Origin: a plasmid
Reading direction: 5' to 3' (one strand)
Length of the DNA stretch: 9,830 nucleotides
Sequence record: NZ_CP102822.1
Shown: positions 3,001 to 9,000 of the stretch, one piece after another
Position numbering within the stretch: position 1 is the first letter of the stretch
Layout: each line of letters starts with the position of its first letter
Position numbers: made by a program

Positions 3001-6000
3001 TTGGTCATTCCAACTCTATTTTCAAACGTTTTAATCGTTGGTCAAGCAGCGGTAAGTTACTTAGATTATTCAAATTACTAGCCTCATGCCCCGATATGGA
3101 GTGGATTTTTATTGATGGCTCTCATGTACGTGCTCATCAACATTCTGCCGGCATAGCGAATCAATCTATTTCTAAAAGTGTAGGAGGAAACTCCTCAAAA
3201 ATACATTTGATTGTTGATGCACATGGCAATCCTATTGATTTCATGATTACCGATGGAACCACACATGATGTTAAAGTTGCGCCTGATTTAATATCAACAT
3301 TAGATTTAAAAGAGACAAAAGTGGTATGCGCAGATAAAGGCTATGATTCAGAACCACTGCGTGAACAGATCAGGAAAACAGGGACTAAAGCGAATATACC
3401 AAAGAAAACGAATAGCCAATCGAACAATGACCATATGGACTGGTATTTATATAAAATCAGGCATTTAGTTGAAAATATGTTTTGTAGATTAAAGCAATTT
3501 AGAGGAATAGCTACTCGATATGACAAGCTCAAAAGAAATTATCAAAGTTCTGTTGCCTTAGCCTGTATATTTTTATGGCTACCTTTATAGGGTTAATTAT
3601 GAACAGTAAGTGTCAACAGACCCTAATTTAACATAATGGCGATTATACGAAGTACACTTGTATATTAATATAAATATCAACTACTTAATAAAAATAGAAA
3701 AATCCCAAAATGCCCAAAAAGCCGACTTTGAAACAAGTCGGCTTTTTTATGAGCAGTTTTGATACTTCTTGCCAATAATTTTGACTAAAAATTACACGAA
3801 TCTGGTTGAGTGATACAATTTTGTGATACATTATTGTATATACAAATTTGAATGTTTTTTATGGAACAGTATTTTGAATGGGATGAGGCTAAGAATCGAA
3901 AGAATCAGAAAAAGCATGATATCTCTTTCGAAACTGCAAGCCTTGTTTTTGAAGATCCATTACGGATCTCAATCCAAGACAGACATACCAATGGTGAAGA
4001 ACGTTGGCAAACCATTGGACGAGTTAAAGGCGTACTAATGTTATTGGTGGCTCACACCATTTTTGATGAAGATGACTGTGAAATCATCCGAATCATTAGT
4101 GCAAGGCAAGTCACTAAAGCGGAGCGAAACAAATATGAGCATGGTTAGATACTCACACAAAGAGCTGAATGAGAAATTTGGTGAGAAGCAAGATGCTGAA
4201 ATTCAACGCTTGCTTGCTAAAGGCACGGTTCCTGATGATCAGCTAGATCTATCAGATATTCCTGAAATTACAGACTGGAGCAATGCTGTACGCCAAAATC
4301 AATTTTACCGCCCAGTAAAGCAACAAACTTCAATTCGGTTAGATGCTGATGTACTTGCTTGGTTCAAAGCACAAGGCAAAGGTTATCAAACACGTATGAA
4401 TGAAATTTTACGAGATGCTATGCTAAAAGAATTAAAAAATCATCAATAAGAATGGGAGCTTAGGCTCCCATTTTTGACTTCATTTTTAGGGGGGATTACC
4501 ATTCAAAAATTTAAATAGTAGATTTTATAAATTTTTAAGTGTTATATTATAATATAACATTAAATTTGGTTGTTTTATGCTAAATAAAAGTAAACTATTT
4601 TTAGCTTTAATTACTTTAGGGGCCTCGAAAATTTTATTGGCAGCTGAAGGGCCTGTTACTACCTTAAATACAATAGTATTAACTGCACAATCTGATGAGT
4701 TAGGGTCTGAGCTGTTAGGCAAAAGTCTAAATGTTAGTAATCAGTTTATTGATACTAGTAAACTTAAACAGCGTTCGACAACTCTAGGGGATGCCTTGGG
4801 TACGGAATTAGGAATTCATTCTAATCAATATGGAGGTGGAGCATCTACTCCTATTATTCGTGGGCAGGAAGGAAAACGTATTAAAGTTTTACAGAATAAT
4901 GCTGACGTGTTGGATATGTCTAATATGTCCCCAGATCACGCTGTCACAGTTGAACCAAGTTTAGCTAAGTCTATTGAAATTATACGTGGTGCAAGTACCC
5001 TTTTGTATAGTTCAAATAGTGCGGCAGGGGTAGTCAATGTCATTGACTATAAAATTCCAACCCAAATGCCTCAAGACGGATTAGAGGGTAATACTACATT
5101 ACGTTTTAATACTGGCAGTAATGAGAAGTTGACCACAGCAGGTGTAACAGTTGGCTTAAGCCCACATGTAGCTTTACGGGCAGAAGGGTTATATCGTAAT
5201 GCTGGTAACTATAAAACTCCTCATTACCAGTCTAGCTCTTATAATTCTTTAGAAGATCTTGAAAACCAAAACAGTATTTATAAAAATTTAAAATATTTAC
5301 CAGAAAGCTGGGCAGAGTCGAGAGTAGGTACGCTTGGATTATCCTGGATAGACGATAATACTTATTTAGGAGTTTCTTATACACATCGTCATGATGAATA
5401 TGGTTTACCAGCCCATAGCCATTTATATGAAGGTTGTGGTGCCTCTGCAATCGGTATCGATTCACGAATTAGTGGATTAAAAAATTATCTTTTATATTAT
5501 CCTCAATTGATGGATGAGCAAGATATTAATTACATAAATCCACGTCCTGATTGTCATCAGCATAATCATATTCATGAAACTAATTTCTCTCATAATGCTC
5601 CTTATATTGATTTAAATACTCGACGTTATGATGTGCGTGGAGAATTCACTCAACCATTTACCGGTATTGACAAAATTCGTACCTCATTGAGTTATATAGA
5701 TTATTTTCACAATGAACTCGAGGGAGATAAGATTACTAACTTTTTTAAAAATACAGGAAAAGTAGGCCGCATAGAGTTATCACATCAGCCATTAGGGGAA
5801 TTAACCGGTATCTTGGGGCTACAATATTTGGAACAGGATAATAGTGCTTTATCACCAGTCCATTCTCAAGAAGGCCATACCACCTATCTAGATAATCAGC
5901 AGCTATTAAATCGAAATGTCACTAAAAACTTTAGTGTATTTGGCCTAGAAAAATATAACTGGAACGACTTTACTTTCGAACTAGGTGCTCGTATAGAAAA

Positions 6001-9000
6001 GCAGAAAGTTAGTATGGATTATGATATAGAAAAAATTAAAGATTCAATGAAACCTTGGCCTAATAAATATAACAGTCCTTATGTAGAAAAAAATAATAAA
6101 ATCAGGGCTCAAAATTTAAAATCTATTTTAGAAGCTGTTCAACCTAACAAAGAAACAGCTTTTTCTTATGCAGGTACAGTCCACTGGAGATTTGCTCCAA
6201 ATTATATCTTATCATTAACAGGTACACATCAAGAAAGATTACCTAATGCACAAGAAATGTATACTCATGGTATGCATCTCGCTACTAATTCTTTTGAAAT
6301 AGGTAACCGCTTTCTAAGAAAAGAGAAATCCAATAATTTAGAAATCAGTCTGGCCTATAAGGATGATTTACTTGATTATCAAATCAGTACTTACTATTAT
6401 GATTTTGATAACTATATATATTTACAGACACTCAATGAAGTTTTAGGAACTACAAAAGTTAGAGATCAGCATACACTACGTATTAATCATTATAGCCAGT
6501 CTGCTGCTAATTTTTATGGATTAGAGGGCAACATAGGGTATCAATTTAATTCTGTTTATCACGGCTCTCTTTTTGGAGATTATGTGAAAGGCCGTTTAAC
6601 AAATTTACCTGATGCTGTAATTGCATACGATATCTGGAATAGAGAACCGACTTTAGCTCCCCAAAAGGATCGTTACACTCCTAGATTACCTCCTGCTCGT
6701 TTGGGTACACGACTAAAAGCTGATTTTGATGAATCGCTTAAAGGTGAAATAGAATATTATCGAGTCTTTAAACAAGATAATATTTCTAAATTTGAGCAGG
6801 TTACATCAGGTTATAATATGCTTAATATGACTTTAGCATATAAAAATAAGCTATCTCACACAGAATATGATTTATTCTTTAAAGCGAATAATTTACTTGA
6901 TCAGAAAGTCTATGCCCATGAAACATTTTTGCCATATATTCCCCAAATTGGAAGAAATTTTAGTTTAGGCTTAAATCTTAATTTCTAGATAAGATACTGT
7001 AATCTTCTAAGAAAATTTCTTAGAAGATTTTTCTTATAAAATGATTAGATTAATAATTAAGGTAAGCGTCCGCTGAATCCCATACCTATTTTTTAATTCG
7101 ATTTAGGTTTCCAGCAGTGTGGCAGTAACTCTTCAATCTGGGTCACTTTATGTGTCGGCAGCCTTTTCAGCACTGAATAGCCACCGATTTTGTAGACACC
7201 TTTTAGCTAGATAAAAAGCAATTTTTTTGATCTTTAAAGAATGAGGATATAAGCTGTTTAAAACTTAATTCTAATTGGTTAATAGGTGAAAAATGAAATT
7301 AGCAGAAGCTCTCTTACTTCGAAGTGATCAACAAAAAAAAATTATTTCACTAAAACAACGTATCAATGCAAATGTATTGGTACAAGATGGTGATCAACCA
7401 TCTGAAGATCCAAATGAACTACTAAAACAAGTATTTTCTTTAATTCAAGAATTTCAAAAATTAAGTTATGCAATTCATGAAACTAATGCTTTAACAAAAT
7501 TAAATGATGGCCGTTCTCTACTTGCTTTATTGACTTTGCGTGATGAATTTGTAGAACAGCACAAAACCCTAACTGCAGCAATAAGTAATACATCTCGTGA
7601 ATCTGATCGTTATAGTACGCGGGAAATAAAGTGGCATAAAGTTATTCCAGTTTCATCATTACAAAAACAAGCTGATGATATTAGTCTTAAATTACGTGAT
7701 TTAAACGTGTTAATTCAGTCGACTAATTGGAAAATTGATTTGATTGAAGCCTAATAGTCCTTTAGATATAATCAAGTTGAACATACTGGGCGAGTACAAG
7801 ATCCCTTACTTCCACAACATAGGATTGTAAATAAAGTGTAGTGGCTTGCAAAGCAAGTGGATAAGCTTAAAATTTTAAGTACAAATCAATCCATCACTTG
7901 GCATAACTCAAATCTTTGTGCAAACAAAGTTACACGTTACTTATAACTACCATGTACTGACAGTATGTTCACCTCAATTACTAAAAATAAAGAAATGAAC
8001 AAGCATCAGCTCAACTACATTTCTATTTTTAATTCAGTTCGGCATTTAACATAAAATCTCTTATACGAAGCCCAGGTTAATTCTGGGCTTTTTGTTCAAT
8101 CTCATCATTGGCCGAGAACATACTTGGATTCGTAAGCCTGATATTTTCCTGACAACTTCCACACAGCATCAATCCTGCAAAAAGTTGTACATTTTGTCTA
8201 TTTTCACAAAGCGTACATGGCTTTGAAAGCTGAATAATATTATCTGACACTACTTTACCCTCTTATAGTTATCATCTGCATATGAATAACCTTTAGCTTG
8301 TATCATTCTAACCTCATCTTTAGAAGCGCCATTTTTCATTAAGAGCCACAACATCATGAAATATAGTCCAGAAAAGTCTTCATAGTATTTTTCAGAAAAA
8401 TTGTTATCTTCCTCAAAATCATCTATTCGCTTTTCTAATCGATTCACCAGATCCTCAATACGATCGGCTTGCTGTTTAACAGCAATAGATTGAAAATCAT
8501 TGGTCAAAATTTTACTGAATAATTTACTGGTTCTGATTCCTTCTGAATTAGCCAATTGATCGTAGAATTCTGCTACTTGTGGATCTAACCTGACTGCATA
8601 AGTTTTGACTTTTTCGCCCATAAATTACACCTCTTATTAAAATTAGATTTTGTACAAAATTAAATATATATAATTCAACTAATTAAATAAAAAATAATAA
8701 TTAGATTACGTACAAACTTATTTGTACAGAATTAATTTATTCTAAAACAAAAACTTATTTAAATATAATGCTTTTTTTATGTACAATCATGAGTACATAT
8801 TTTTTCTTAAATTTATCAATATCTTATCTAAAAAAAGTGTTGTTTTGATGTACAACCATGAGCACAGCATAAAAAATAGATAATTCAATCACTTATTCTA
8901 AAAAAAGACCATTTTTCTGTACACGTTTCTGAGACCCTAAAAAATCGCTGAAATCCTTATCCTGTAAGGCTTTGAGGGGTGTCATCGTTAGATGCGTGGT

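What the first reader, a model, noticed from the sequence alone, without database searches (positions are those of the whole stretch)
4476..6988. Plasmid-borne ZnuD/heme-receptor-like TonB-dependent receptor behind a Zur-box-like palindrome that overlaps its -10 element
The receptor has two His-rich segments (HRHDEYGLPAHSH and CHQHNHIHETNFSHN) and a FRAP/NPNL-like region, features of zinc/heme piracy receptors. The 20-bp perfect palindrome TGTTATATTATAATATAACA contains a consensus TATAAT and resembles a Zur box but with a longer central spacer. That implies metal-repressed expression of a nutrient-metal uptake receptor co-resident with a carbapenemase on a small plasmid. The atypical spacing could indicate a different regulator or tandem half-sites.
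Basis: partly seen in the sequence, partly recalled or inferred. Interest (0 to 1): 0.6.

Follow-up and report, generated by a model that had tools for sequence, protein, structure and literature searches.

The report
Known zinc receptor gene znuD2
This is znuD2, an already named zinc-uptake outer-membrane receptor carried on common Acinetobacter baumannii carbapenemase plasmids, and the palindrome in front of it is a normal-length binding site for the zinc repressor Zur rather than an oddly spaced one.

Summary
ORF 4577-6988 encodes an 803-aa TonB-dependent receptor. The perfect 20-bp palindrome TGTTATATTATAATATAACA lies at 4540-4559 and covers a consensus TATAAT. Both His-rich segments are present. 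OXA-72 is on the same plasmid.

RefSeq annotates the identical gene as znuD2 in about 300 Acinetobacter plasmid records. Hood et al. 2012 named it, predicted its Zur box and showed induction by the zinc chelator TPEN.

All four high-affinity zinc ligands of the Neisseria ZnuD crystal structure are conserved. The heme-receptor resemblance is superficial, and there is no Fur box.

The "longer central spacer" is a misreading. The palindrome holds two canonical 7-1-7 Zur boxes offset by 5 bp. It matches 20/20 the structure-derived two-dimer Zur operator of E. coli, as do chromosomal Acinetobacter znuD operators.

Two small new points:
- The window carries the common promoter allele (T at 4553, 296 records). 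The published regulation experiments used the rare ATCC 17978 allele (C, 12 records).
- ZnuD2 groups with Moraxella and Pasteurellaceae receptors, not with Acinetobacter's own ZnuD.

Interest is low.

The parts
4447..4476 (+). Terminator-like hairpin after brnA. It marks the upstream edge of the znuD2 unit. Other Acinetobacter plasmids share brnA but diverge after about 4480.
4524..4529 (+). -35-like hexamer TTTATA, 18 nt upstream of the TATAAT
   Evidence: consensus scan only; no transcription start site data
4540..4559 (.). 20-bp perfect palindrome, read as the Zur operator. It matches the two-dimer Zur motif TGWNAYRWTATAWYRTNWCA at 20/20 positions.
   Evidence: motif from PMC4219657
4540..4554 (.). 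Register 1: 7-1-7 Zur core TGTTATATTATAATA, 14/15 to TGTTATAWTATAACA. It is 15/15 in the ATCC 17978 allele.
4545..4559 (.). Register 2: 7-1-7 Zur core TATTATAATATAACA, 14/15. As a 19-mer (4543-4561) it is the best PSSM hit in the window at 19.55 bits.
4548..4553 (+). Consensus -10 hexamer TATAAT at the centre of the operator. Position 4553 is polymorphic: T here (296 plasmid records), C in ATCC 17978 pAB2 (12 records), which gives TATAAC.
4577..6988 (+). znuD2 coding sequence, 803 aa. It has an N-terminal signal-peptide-like segment (aa 1-22, read from the sequence), a TonB-box-like TLNTIVLTA (aa 29-37) and a C-terminal Phe.
4934..4939 (+). Codons for D120-H121, equivalent to Neisseria ZnuD Asp99-His100 (plug-apex zinc ligands)
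5384..5422 (+). His-rich segment 1, HRHDEYGLPAHSH (aa 270-282). It overlaps Neisseria loop-3 cluster 1 (HSHEYDDCHAD). In ZnuD2 the tail of that cluster is LYEGCGAS.
5552..5596 (+). His-rich segment 2, CHQHNHIHETNFSHN (aa 326-340). It aligns with Neisseria loop-3 cluster 2 (HDDDNAHAHTH). This stretch is low-confidence and probably flexible in the model.
5714..5716 (+). Codon for E380, equivalent to Neisseria ZnuD Glu340 (zinc ligand)
6275..6277 (+). Codon for H567, equivalent to Neisseria ZnuD His499 (zinc ligand). It lies between the FRAP-like ERLP and the NPNL-like GNRFL.
7001..7029 (+). Terminator-like perfect 14-bp hairpin followed by a T run, 13 nt after the stop codon. Together with the upstream hairpin it makes znuD2 look monocistronic.

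Best explanation
The gene is znuD2, a plasmid-borne member of the ZnuD family of TonB-dependent outer-membrane zinc receptors.

When the cell has enough zinc, zinc-loaded chromosomal Zur binds the 20-bp operator at 4540-4559. This operator covers the whole -10 region, so RNA polymerase is excluded (inferred). The operator offers two overlapping RNNNY-xxx-RNNNY registers 5 bp apart. In E. coli that arrangement seats two Zur dimers on opposite faces of the DNA. Whether Acinetobacter Zur also binds as two dimers is inferred, not shown.

When zinc is scarce, for example under calprotectin in the host or with TPEN, Zur releases the DNA and znuD2 is transcribed. Induction was shown in the literature for the ATCC 17978 allele.

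The receptor then captures Zn2+ with a His-rich extracellular loop 3. It passes the ion to a buried site formed by D120, H121, E380 and H567, and imports it using TonB energy. ZnuABC completes uptake across the inner membrane. These transport steps are inferred by homology to the Neisseria ZnuD structure.

The gene is a horizontally acquired second copy of a Moraxella/Pasteurellaceae type. It rides on the small Rep_3 plasmids that also carry pdif-flanked blaOXA-24/72 modules.
For: Identity of the gene:
- RefSeq annotates the 100%-identical gene as 'TonB-dependent receptor ZnuD2'.
- Hood 2012 named A1S_3475 on pAB2 znuD2, predicted a Zur box (E 9.9e-8) and measured TPEN induction by qRT-PCR.
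- In strain ABC141 a znuD znuD2 double mutant grows worse under TPEN, and zinc rescues it. znuD2 was up 2.12-fold inside host cells. A primer from that study reads ATATAACATT, which corresponds to the T allele.

Family placement:
- NCBIfam ZnuD scores 744.8 bits; the next family scores 91.6.
- Against Neisseria ZnuD (4rdr) the sequence match has E 1e-187. The AlphaFold model matches 4rdr with E 1e-68 and TM 0.92 by target, while the next hit is PhuR at 5.6e-30.
- All four zinc ligands are invariant across 20 diverse homologues.

Operator:
- The gamma-proteobacterial 19-mer consensus hits only 4538-4556 and 4543-4561 in the window; 0.01 hits are expected by chance.
- A PSSM built from 45 unique ZnuD-family sites gives 19.55 and 13.02 bits there. 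The next best score in the window is -0.6, and the training sites range from 16.3 to 28.2 bits.
- The two-dimer motif matches 20/20, with about 0.0009 matches expected by base composition.
- Canonical boxes lie 17-57 nt upstream of the start codon in most Acinetobacter, Neisseria and Moraxella homologues.
Against: - No experiment here or in the papers I could read shows Zur binding to this particular operator. The published EMSA used the znuA/zur box.
- The regulation data come from the C allele, or from a modest 2.1-fold change in ABC141.
- The function of ZnuD2 alone is described as unknown (PMC12912691). Single znuD2 mutants had no infection phenotype.
- The protein falls below NCBIfam's ZnuD cut-off (744.8 < 950).
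- Residues used by E. coli Zur for dimer-dimer contact (Asp49, Arg52) and for base readout (Tyr45) are reported as not generally conserved outside enterobacteria (PMC6103462). Two-dimer binding in Acinetobacter is therefore uncertain.
- The transcription start site is not known. The operator contains several -10-like hexamers.
Confidence: 0.85

Rival explanations
1. ZnuD2 is not a free-zinc channel. It is a receptor that strips zinc from a host protein such as an S100 protein or calprotectin, or takes a zincophore, using loops that Acinetobacter's own ZnuD lacks. Regulation by Zur would be the same.
For: ZnuD2 clusters with receptors of host-restricted Moraxella and Pasteurellaceae, not with Acinetobacter ZnuD. 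It has insertions relative to Neisseria ZnuD at aa 218-235 and about 496-511, and much longer loops than the 680-aa Acinetobacter ZnuD. The model places a long helix at 501-520. The gonococcal ZnuD orthologue TdfJ is reported to bind human S100A7 (title of PMC6692053).
Against: The complete buried Zn2+ site is conserved, which is enough for free-zinc capture as in Neisseria. No binding data exist for any host protein. The insertions are short compared with known protein-binding receptors. I did not model any complex.
Confidence: 0.12
2. It is a heme or hemoglobin receptor of the HemR/HumA kind, controlled by iron through Fur.
For: It has a FRAP/NPNL-like stretch with a central His (ERLP...H567...GNRFL). 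There are weak hits to TIGR01785 and TIGR01786. Heme receptors (PhuR, ChuA, ShuA, HasR) are the next structural neighbours after ZnuD. Early work on Neisseria ZnuD suggested heme use (cited in PMC3859900).
Against: The heme-family HMMs score 83-92 bits against cut-offs of 317-324. Sequence identity to heme receptors is only 13-15%. No Fur box is found with up to 3 mismatches. Calmettes 2015 found that ZnuD does not bind heme-agarose and that its pocket is too small for heme. H567 aligns with a zinc ligand.
Confidence: 0.03
3. The palindrome is only an AT-rich promoter element or a chance palindrome, or it is the site of some other regulator. It would not be a functional Zur operator in this allele, because the C-to-T change at 4553 removed the perfect box.
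For: The window is 65% A+T. Perfect palindromes with 10-nt arms arise in 2.4% of shuffles. The T allele has no perfect 15-mer core. Direct evidence for Zur control exists only for the C allele.
Against: The change is pyrimidine to pyrimidine at a position written as Y in the structure-based motif, so both alleles match 20/20. The PSSM total is essentially unchanged: the best register simply moves, 19.55 bits here against 19.64 in pAB2. The position relative to the gene start is the same as in dozens of orthologues. The T-allele strain ABC141 still up-regulates znuD2 inside cells, where znuD is also induced.
Confidence: 0.05

Closest known systems
A. baumannii ZnuD2 (A1S_3475, plasmid pAB2 of ATCC 17978; Hood et al. 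2012)
   Same: It is the same gene. DNA identity is 98.9% across the unit, with the same BrnT/BrnA neighbours upstream, the same promoter architecture and the same RefSeq name.
   Different: The window has T instead of C at 4553. That turns a perfect 15-bp Zur core with TATAAC into a perfect 20-bp palindrome with TATAAT. The downstream flank also differs from 7065 on: an IS66-end remnant and a DIP1984 gene here, a CPBP protease gene in pAB2.
Neisseria meningitidis ZnuD (PDB 4RDR/4RDT/4RVW) and gonococcal TdfJ
   Same: 42% identity over the full length. The plug-barrel fold is the same, all four high-affinity zinc ligands are conserved, there are two His-rich clusters in loop 3, and a Zur box lies upstream.
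   Different: ZnuD2 has insertions at aa 218-235 and about 496-511. Its cluster 1 has lost most acidic and His residues (EYDDCHAD becomes LYEGCGAS). It is plasmid-borne. Zinc binding was not tested here.
A. baumannii chromosomal ZnuD (ZnuD1, A1S_2892; NCBIfam NF038289)
   Same: Same family, same zinc ligands and the same host regulator. Its operator, TGAAATGTTATAWTATAACA, has the same 20-bp length and fits the same two-dimer motif.
   Different: Only about 40% identical. It is 680-715 aa against 803 aa and lacks several long loops. ZnuD2 scores below the NF038289 cut-off and branches with Moraxella and Glaesserella receptors. The chromosomal operator is asymmetric (TGAAA extension), whereas this one is a perfect palindrome.
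E. coli PznuABC Zur operator, (Zur2)2-DNA complex (Gilston et al. 2014, PDB 4MTD)
   Same: The 20-bp pattern TGWNAYRWTATAWYRTNWCA is matched 20/20. It contains two RNNNY-xxx-RNNNY dimer sites offset by 5 bp.
   Different: This is a different organism and a different Zur. The residues behind E. coli cooperativity and Tyr45 readout are reported not to be generally conserved. Stoichiometry on this operator is unknown.

Membership tests
ZnuD family of zinc TonB-dependent receptors | TonB-dependent receptor architecture: N-terminal plug plus beta-barrel, and a C-terminal aromatic residue | tested here: met
   Pfam Plug (aa 55-152) and TonB_dep_Rec_b-barrel (aa 335-773). The AlphaFold model is a barrel with pTM 0.79. 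The protein ends in ...LNLNF.
ZnuD family of zinc TonB-dependent receptors | Full-length homology to structurally characterised N. meningitidis ZnuD, closer than to any other solved receptor | tested here: met
   phmmer gives E 1.2e-187, and ZnuD is the only PDB sequence below 1e-5. Foldseek gives 4rdr E 1.1e-68, with the next hit PhuR at 5.6e-30.
ZnuD family of zinc TonB-dependent receptors | Four high-affinity Zn2+ ligands (Nm Asp99, His100, Glu340, His499) | tested here: met
   They correspond to ZnuD2 D120, H121, E380 and H567. All four are invariant columns in a 20-sequence alignment spanning Acinetobacter, Moraxella, Neisseria and Pasteurellaceae.
ZnuD family of zinc TonB-dependent receptors | His/Asp/Glu-rich clusters in extracellular loop 3 | tested here: met
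   Cluster 2 is clearly His-rich (HQHNHIHETNFSH). Cluster 1 keeps HSH but has lost the acidic/His tail.
ZnuD family of zinc TonB-dependent receptors | Reaches the curated cut-off of NCBIfam NF038289 (ZnuD) | tested here: not met
   744.8 bits against a cut-off of 950. The model is 685 positions long and fits the short Acinetobacter chromosomal type. RefSeq therefore names this protein ZnuD2 rather than ZnuD.
ZnuD family of zinc TonB-dependent receptors | Expression induced by zinc limitation through Zur | not testable with these tools
   From the literature only. TPEN induction was shown in ATCC 17978 (PMC3516566). Intracellular induction was 2.12-fold in ABC141 (PMC12912691). Mortensen 2014, the zur-mutant transcriptome paper, was not available.
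ZnuD family of zinc TonB-dependent receptors | Zinc transport or zinc-dependent growth phenotype | not testable with these tools
   Only a znuD znuD2 double-mutant TPEN phenotype is reported. The function of ZnuD2 alone is stated to be unknown.
Gamma-proteobacterial Zur operator | 7-1-7 inverted repeat core TGTTATAWTATAACA (19-mer AATGTTATAWTATAACATT) | tested here: met
   There are two overlapping cores, each 14/15. The 19-mers have 2 and 3 mismatches, with 0.01 hits expected by chance. PSSM scores are 19.55 and 13.02 bits. The ATCC 17978 allele has a 15/15 core.
Gamma-proteobacterial Zur operator | 20-bp two-dimer recognition pattern TGWNAYRWTATAWYRTNWCA (E. coli structure-based) | tested here: met
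   20/20 at 4540-4559. Also exact in 41 of 87 sequences examined, including many chromosomal Acinetobacter znuD loci.
Gamma-proteobacterial Zur operator | Overlaps core promoter elements of the regulated gene | tested here: inconclusive
   The best promoter-like match puts the -10 TATAAT at the centre of the operator. No transcription start site data were obtainable.
Gamma-proteobacterial Zur operator | Zinc-dependent binding by Zur | not testable with these tools
   The published EMSA used the znuA/zur box, not this one.
Heme/hemoglobin TonB-dependent receptors (TIGR01785/TIGR01786; FRAP-NPNL receptors) | Reaches family HMM cut-offs and has canonical FRAP and NPNL boxes | tested here: not met
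   82.8 and 91.6 bits against cut-offs of 316.85 and 323.75. The motifs are degenerate (ERLP, GNRFL), and the central His is a zinc ligand in ZnuD.
Fur-regulated promoter | Fur box GATAATGATAATCATTATC | tested here: not met
   No match with up to 3 mismatches anywhere in the window.

The most novel reading that the evidence does not exclude
ZnuD2 may be more than a redundant copy of ZnuD. It may be a Moraxella-type receptor that lets A. baumannii take zinc from a host zinc-sequestering protein, as gonococcal TdfJ does with S100A7. In addition, the globally dominant plasmid allele (T at 4553) may have re-tuned the operator and -10 so that the receptor is expressed more readily than in the laboratory strain ATCC 17978. 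If both held, the common OXA-24/72 plasmids would carry a host-adaptation trait along with carbapenem resistance.
Probability: 0.12. Interest if true: 0.5.

Novelty: already known. Interest (0 to 1): 0.15.

Why it matters
The practical message is already in the literature. The small Rep_3 plasmids that spread blaOXA-24/72 in Acinetobacter also carry a zinc-starvation-induced outer-membrane receptor, so selection by carbapenems may co-select a nutritional-immunity countermeasure.

This re-examination adds three modest points:
- The operator is a textbook two-dimer-length Zur site, not an unusual one.
- The experiments that define znuD2 regulation were done on a minority promoter allele. The common clinical allele differs at one operator/-10 base.
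- The receptor is of foreign (Moraxella/Pasteurellaceae-like) type, and its own substrate has never been established.

None of these changes the basic picture.

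Tried and rejected
- Variation among plasmid copies as a test of constraint on the palindrome was uninformative. 309 records are at least 95% identical across the promoter, with only two alleles at the operator.
- Mortensen et al. 2014, the zur-mutant transcriptome paper, could not be read by DOI or by PMC id.
- Transcription start site tables from the ATCC 17978 primary transcriptome paper are not held, so the -10 actually used is unconfirmed.
- My symmetric 19-mer PSSM suggested that a second register at +5 bp is rare, seen in 4 of 75 loci. 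After reading Gilston 2014 I rejected that framing. Chromosomal operators also carry a second RNNNY register (TGAAA flank) and fit the same 20-mer. What is special here is only the perfect symmetry.
- Fur box: none.
- Rfam: no RNA family in the window.
- A search for pdif sites immediately flanking znuD2 found none. The strong sites are at 1828-1852, 3626-3652 and 8044-8070, so znuD2 shares a 4.4-kb pdif-bounded segment with brnTA and the DIP1984 gene.
- I considered a metagenome-wide scan for TGTTATA-N6-TATAACA. I did not run it, because chance matches to 14 specified AT-rich bases would dominate.
- The direction of the C/T change cannot be proven. The perfect core in the C allele, in a Moraxella MAG (L003, identical 20-mer) and in the nearest homologues suggests that C is ancestral.

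Full report
**1. What is in the sequence**

The window is a complete small Acinetobacter Rep_3 plasmid. It is 100% identical to 8,970-bp OXA-72 plasmids such as NC_021489.1 and NZ_CP131881.1, apart from one 860-bp insertion.

In order, it encodes:
- RepM and a replication DNA-binding protein;
- blaOXA-72 between pdif (XerC/XerD) sites;
- an IS5-like element;
- BrnT/BrnA;
- the receptor that is the subject of this finding;
- a DIP1984/DUF6847 protein, often annotated 'septicolysin';
- small hypothetical genes.

The receptor ORF is 4577-6988, 803 aa. The palindrome TGTTATATTATAATATAACA is at 4540-4559, 17 nt before the ATG. It is the longest perfect palindrome in the window, and arms of 10 or more occur in 12 of 500 dinucleotide shuffles.

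A terminator-like hairpin precedes the unit at 4447-4476 and another follows it at 7001-7029. The gene therefore looks monocistronic.

**2. The protein**

- Family scores. The best NCBIfam model is the ZnuD model NF038289 at 744.8 bits. This is below its 950-bit cut-off, but the next families, heme/transferrin-type receptors, reach only 83-92 bits against cut-offs above 316.
- Solved structures. The only solved structure matched by sequence is N. meningitidis ZnuD, with E 1.2e-187 and 42% identity. An AlphaFold model (pLDDT 76.9, pTM 0.79) finds ZnuD first (E 1.1e-68), then PhuR, OprC and ChuA at E around 1e-27 to 1e-30 with 12-15% identity.
- Zinc site. Calmettes et al. 2015 identify Asp99, His100, Glu340 and His499 as the buried high-affinity zinc site (PMC4557270). 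After correcting for the 14-residue offset of the PDB chain, these align with ZnuD2 D120, H121, E380 and H567. All four are invariant in a 20-sequence alignment across four bacterial families.
- His-rich segments. Cluster 1 is partly degenerate in ZnuD2 and cluster 2 is clearly His-rich.
- Heme. The same paper reports that ZnuD does not bind heme-agarose and that the pocket is too small for heme. H567, which lies between the FRAP-like and NPNL-like motifs, is a zinc ligand. The 'heme-receptor-like' label is therefore a resemblance only.

**3. Already known**

RefSeq annotates the identical gene as 'znuD2: TonB-dependent receptor ZnuD2'. The gene is found in 391 PLSDB records by DNA match, nearly all Acinetobacter.

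Hood et al. 2012 (PMC3516566) named A1S_3475 on plasmid pAB2 of ATCC 17978 znuD2. They listed it among predicted Zur-box genes (E 9.9e-8) and showed by qRT-PCR that it is induced by TPEN together with znuABC and znuD1. Reviews repeat this. A vaccine study notes that the role of ZnuD2 needs clarification.

A 2026 study deleted znuD and znuD2 in strain ABC141. The double mutant grows worse in TPEN, znuD2 rises 2.12-fold inside host cells, and the authors state that the function of ZnuD2 is unknown (PMC12912691).

The presence of a TonB-dependent receptor and a 'septicolysin' on these small Rep_3 plasmids, next to XerC/XerD-flanked blaOXA-24/72 modules, is reviewed in PMC5559437.

**4. The palindrome is a normal Zur operator**

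- Consensus scans. The 19-mer gamma-proteobacterial consensus hits the window only at 4538-4556 (3 mismatches) and 4543-4561 (2 mismatches), with 0.01 hits expected. The 15-bp core TGTTATAWTATAACA hits 4540-4554 and 4545-4559 with one mismatch each. The 20-mer is thus two 7-1-7 boxes offset by 5 bp, not one box with a 6-bp spacer.
- Homologue loci. I collected 80 loci encoding ZnuD homologues, plus the nearest relatives' contigs. About 50 Acinetobacter species have GAAATGTTATAWTATAACA 29-45 nt before the chromosomal znuD start. Neisseria species have TGTTATATAATAACA at 28-30 nt. The closest relatives of ZnuD2 (53-57% identity) have one canonical box at 25-32 nt. Pasteurellaceae have none.
- PSSM. 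A matrix built from 45 unique sites scores the two window registers 19.55 and 13.02 bits. The next best position in the window scores -0.6, and the training sites span 16.3-28.2 bits.
- Structural model. Gilston et al. 2014 (PMC4219657) showed that on the E. coli znuABC operator two Zur dimers bind overlapping RNNNY-xxx-RNNNY sites on opposite faces of the DNA. They derived the skeleton RNNNYRNNRYNNYRNNNY and the 20-bp pattern TGWNAYRWTATAWYRTNWCA. In that skeleton the two dimer sites are 5 bp apart.
- Fit to the window. The palindrome matches the pattern at 20/20 positions, with about 0.0009 matches expected from base composition. Chromosomal Acinetobacter operators (TGAAATGTTATATTATAACA) also match exactly, and 41 of the 87 sequences examined contain an exact match. 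The supposed long spacer is simply the normal length of a two-dimer operator. The only unusual property here is perfect symmetry.
- Fur. There is no Fur box.
- Caveat. The residues behind E. coli dimer-dimer cooperativity and Tyr45 readout are reported not to be generally conserved (PMC6103462). Two-dimer binding by Acinetobacter Zur is therefore an inference.

**5. A promoter/operator polymorphism**

ATCC 17978 pAB2 has C where the window has T at 4553:
- pAB2: TGTTATATTATAACATAACA, with a perfect 15-bp core and TATAAC.
- window: TGTTATATTATAATATAACA, a perfect palindrome with TATAAT.

In PLSDB, 296 records carry the window's 60-mer exactly and 12 carry the ATCC 17978 version. Several of those 12 are re-sequenced ATCC 17978.

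The position is a Y in the structure-based motif, so both alleles fit 20/20. The PSSM shows only that the stronger register moves: 19.64/15.25 bits in pAB2 against 13.02/19.55 here.

A Moraxella MAG (L003) has the identical C-type 20-mer before its ZnuD2-like gene. M. pluranimalium has a near-palindromic T-type version, AGTTATATAATAATATAACA.

Whether the T allele changes basal expression is untested. The T makes the central hexamer a consensus -10, but other -10-like hexamers overlap it and no start-site data were available. A primer sequence in the ABC141 study indicates that strain has the T allele and still up-regulates znuD2.

**6. Origin**

Apart from itself, the best matches to ZnuD2 are:
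- unnamed assemblies and Moraxella species, 53-57%;
- Glaesserella and Actinobacillus, about 50%;
- Neisseria ZnuD, 41-43%;
- Acinetobacter chromosomal ZnuD, 39-41%.

A neighbour-joining tree places ZnuD2 in a Moraxella/Glaesserella clade, apart from Acinetobacter ZnuD. The nearest relatives are in chromosomal contexts.

On the plasmid, homology with other brnA-carrying plasmids stops near 4480. Homology with pAB2 stops at about 7064, where a 112-bp IS66/ISAba25-end remnant begins.

**7. Verdict**

It is wrong on heme and on the 'atypical spacing', and it is already published and annotated.

Remaining open points are minor: the effect of the common operator allele, Zur stoichiometry on the operator, and the substrate of ZnuD2 itself.

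Noticed in passing
window 2766-3625: An ISAba31 (IS5-like) copy is inserted between the start of blaOXA-72 (minus strand, start at 2692) and the pdif site at 3626-3652. It is 858 bp plus a duplicated TA. This is the only difference in content from the 8,970-bp OXA-72 plasmids, and no PLSDB record showed this junction. It lies 73 bp upstream of the carbapenemase start, so it could affect blaOXA-72 expression.
   Followed up: partly
window 3626-3652 compared with L086 2772-2798: The pdif site next to the IS reads ATTTAACATAATGGCGATTATACGAAG. The otherwise identical IS-free plasmid has ATTTAACATAATGGACGTTATGCGAAG. The spacer and the XerC-side arm differ, which hints at an exchange at this site.
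   Followed up: no
window 7062-7173: A 112-bp remnant of an IS66-family (ISAba25-like) end, starting GTAAGCGTCCGCTGAATCC, lies between znuD2 and the DIP1984 gene. It begins exactly where similarity to ATCC 17978 pAB2 stops.
   Followed up: partly
window 1828-1852 (+), 3626-3652 (-), 8044-8070 (-): There are three strong pdif (XerC/XerD) sites. The first two bracket the OXA-72 module, now with the IS inside it. The second and third are in direct orientation and bracket a 4.4-kb segment holding brnTA, znuD2 and the DIP1984 gene.
   Followed up: partly
L003 2255-2274; L006 and L007 2382-2401: Two Moraxella lineages with ZnuD2-like genes carry 20-mers of the same build as the plasmid operator. L003 has TGTTATATTATAACATAACA, identical to the ATCC 17978 allele. 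M. pluranimalium has AGTTATATAATAATATAACA, which is close to the window's allele.
   Followed up: partly
ZnuD2 aa 218-235 and about 484-520 (window about 5228-5281 and 6026-6136): These are insertions relative to Neisseria ZnuD and, more so, relative to Acinetobacter ZnuD. The model predicts a long helix at aa 501-520. By alignment, the second insertion falls in the region mapped as immunodominant loop 6 in Neisseria. Moraxella relatives carry even longer insertions at the first site.
   Followed up: no
H80, NZ_CP066815.1 (Aeromonas caviae plasmid, sewer effluent): One non-Acinetobacter record, an Aeromonas caviae plasmid, carries the znuD2 promoter and 5' region at 99.6% identity.
   Followed up: no
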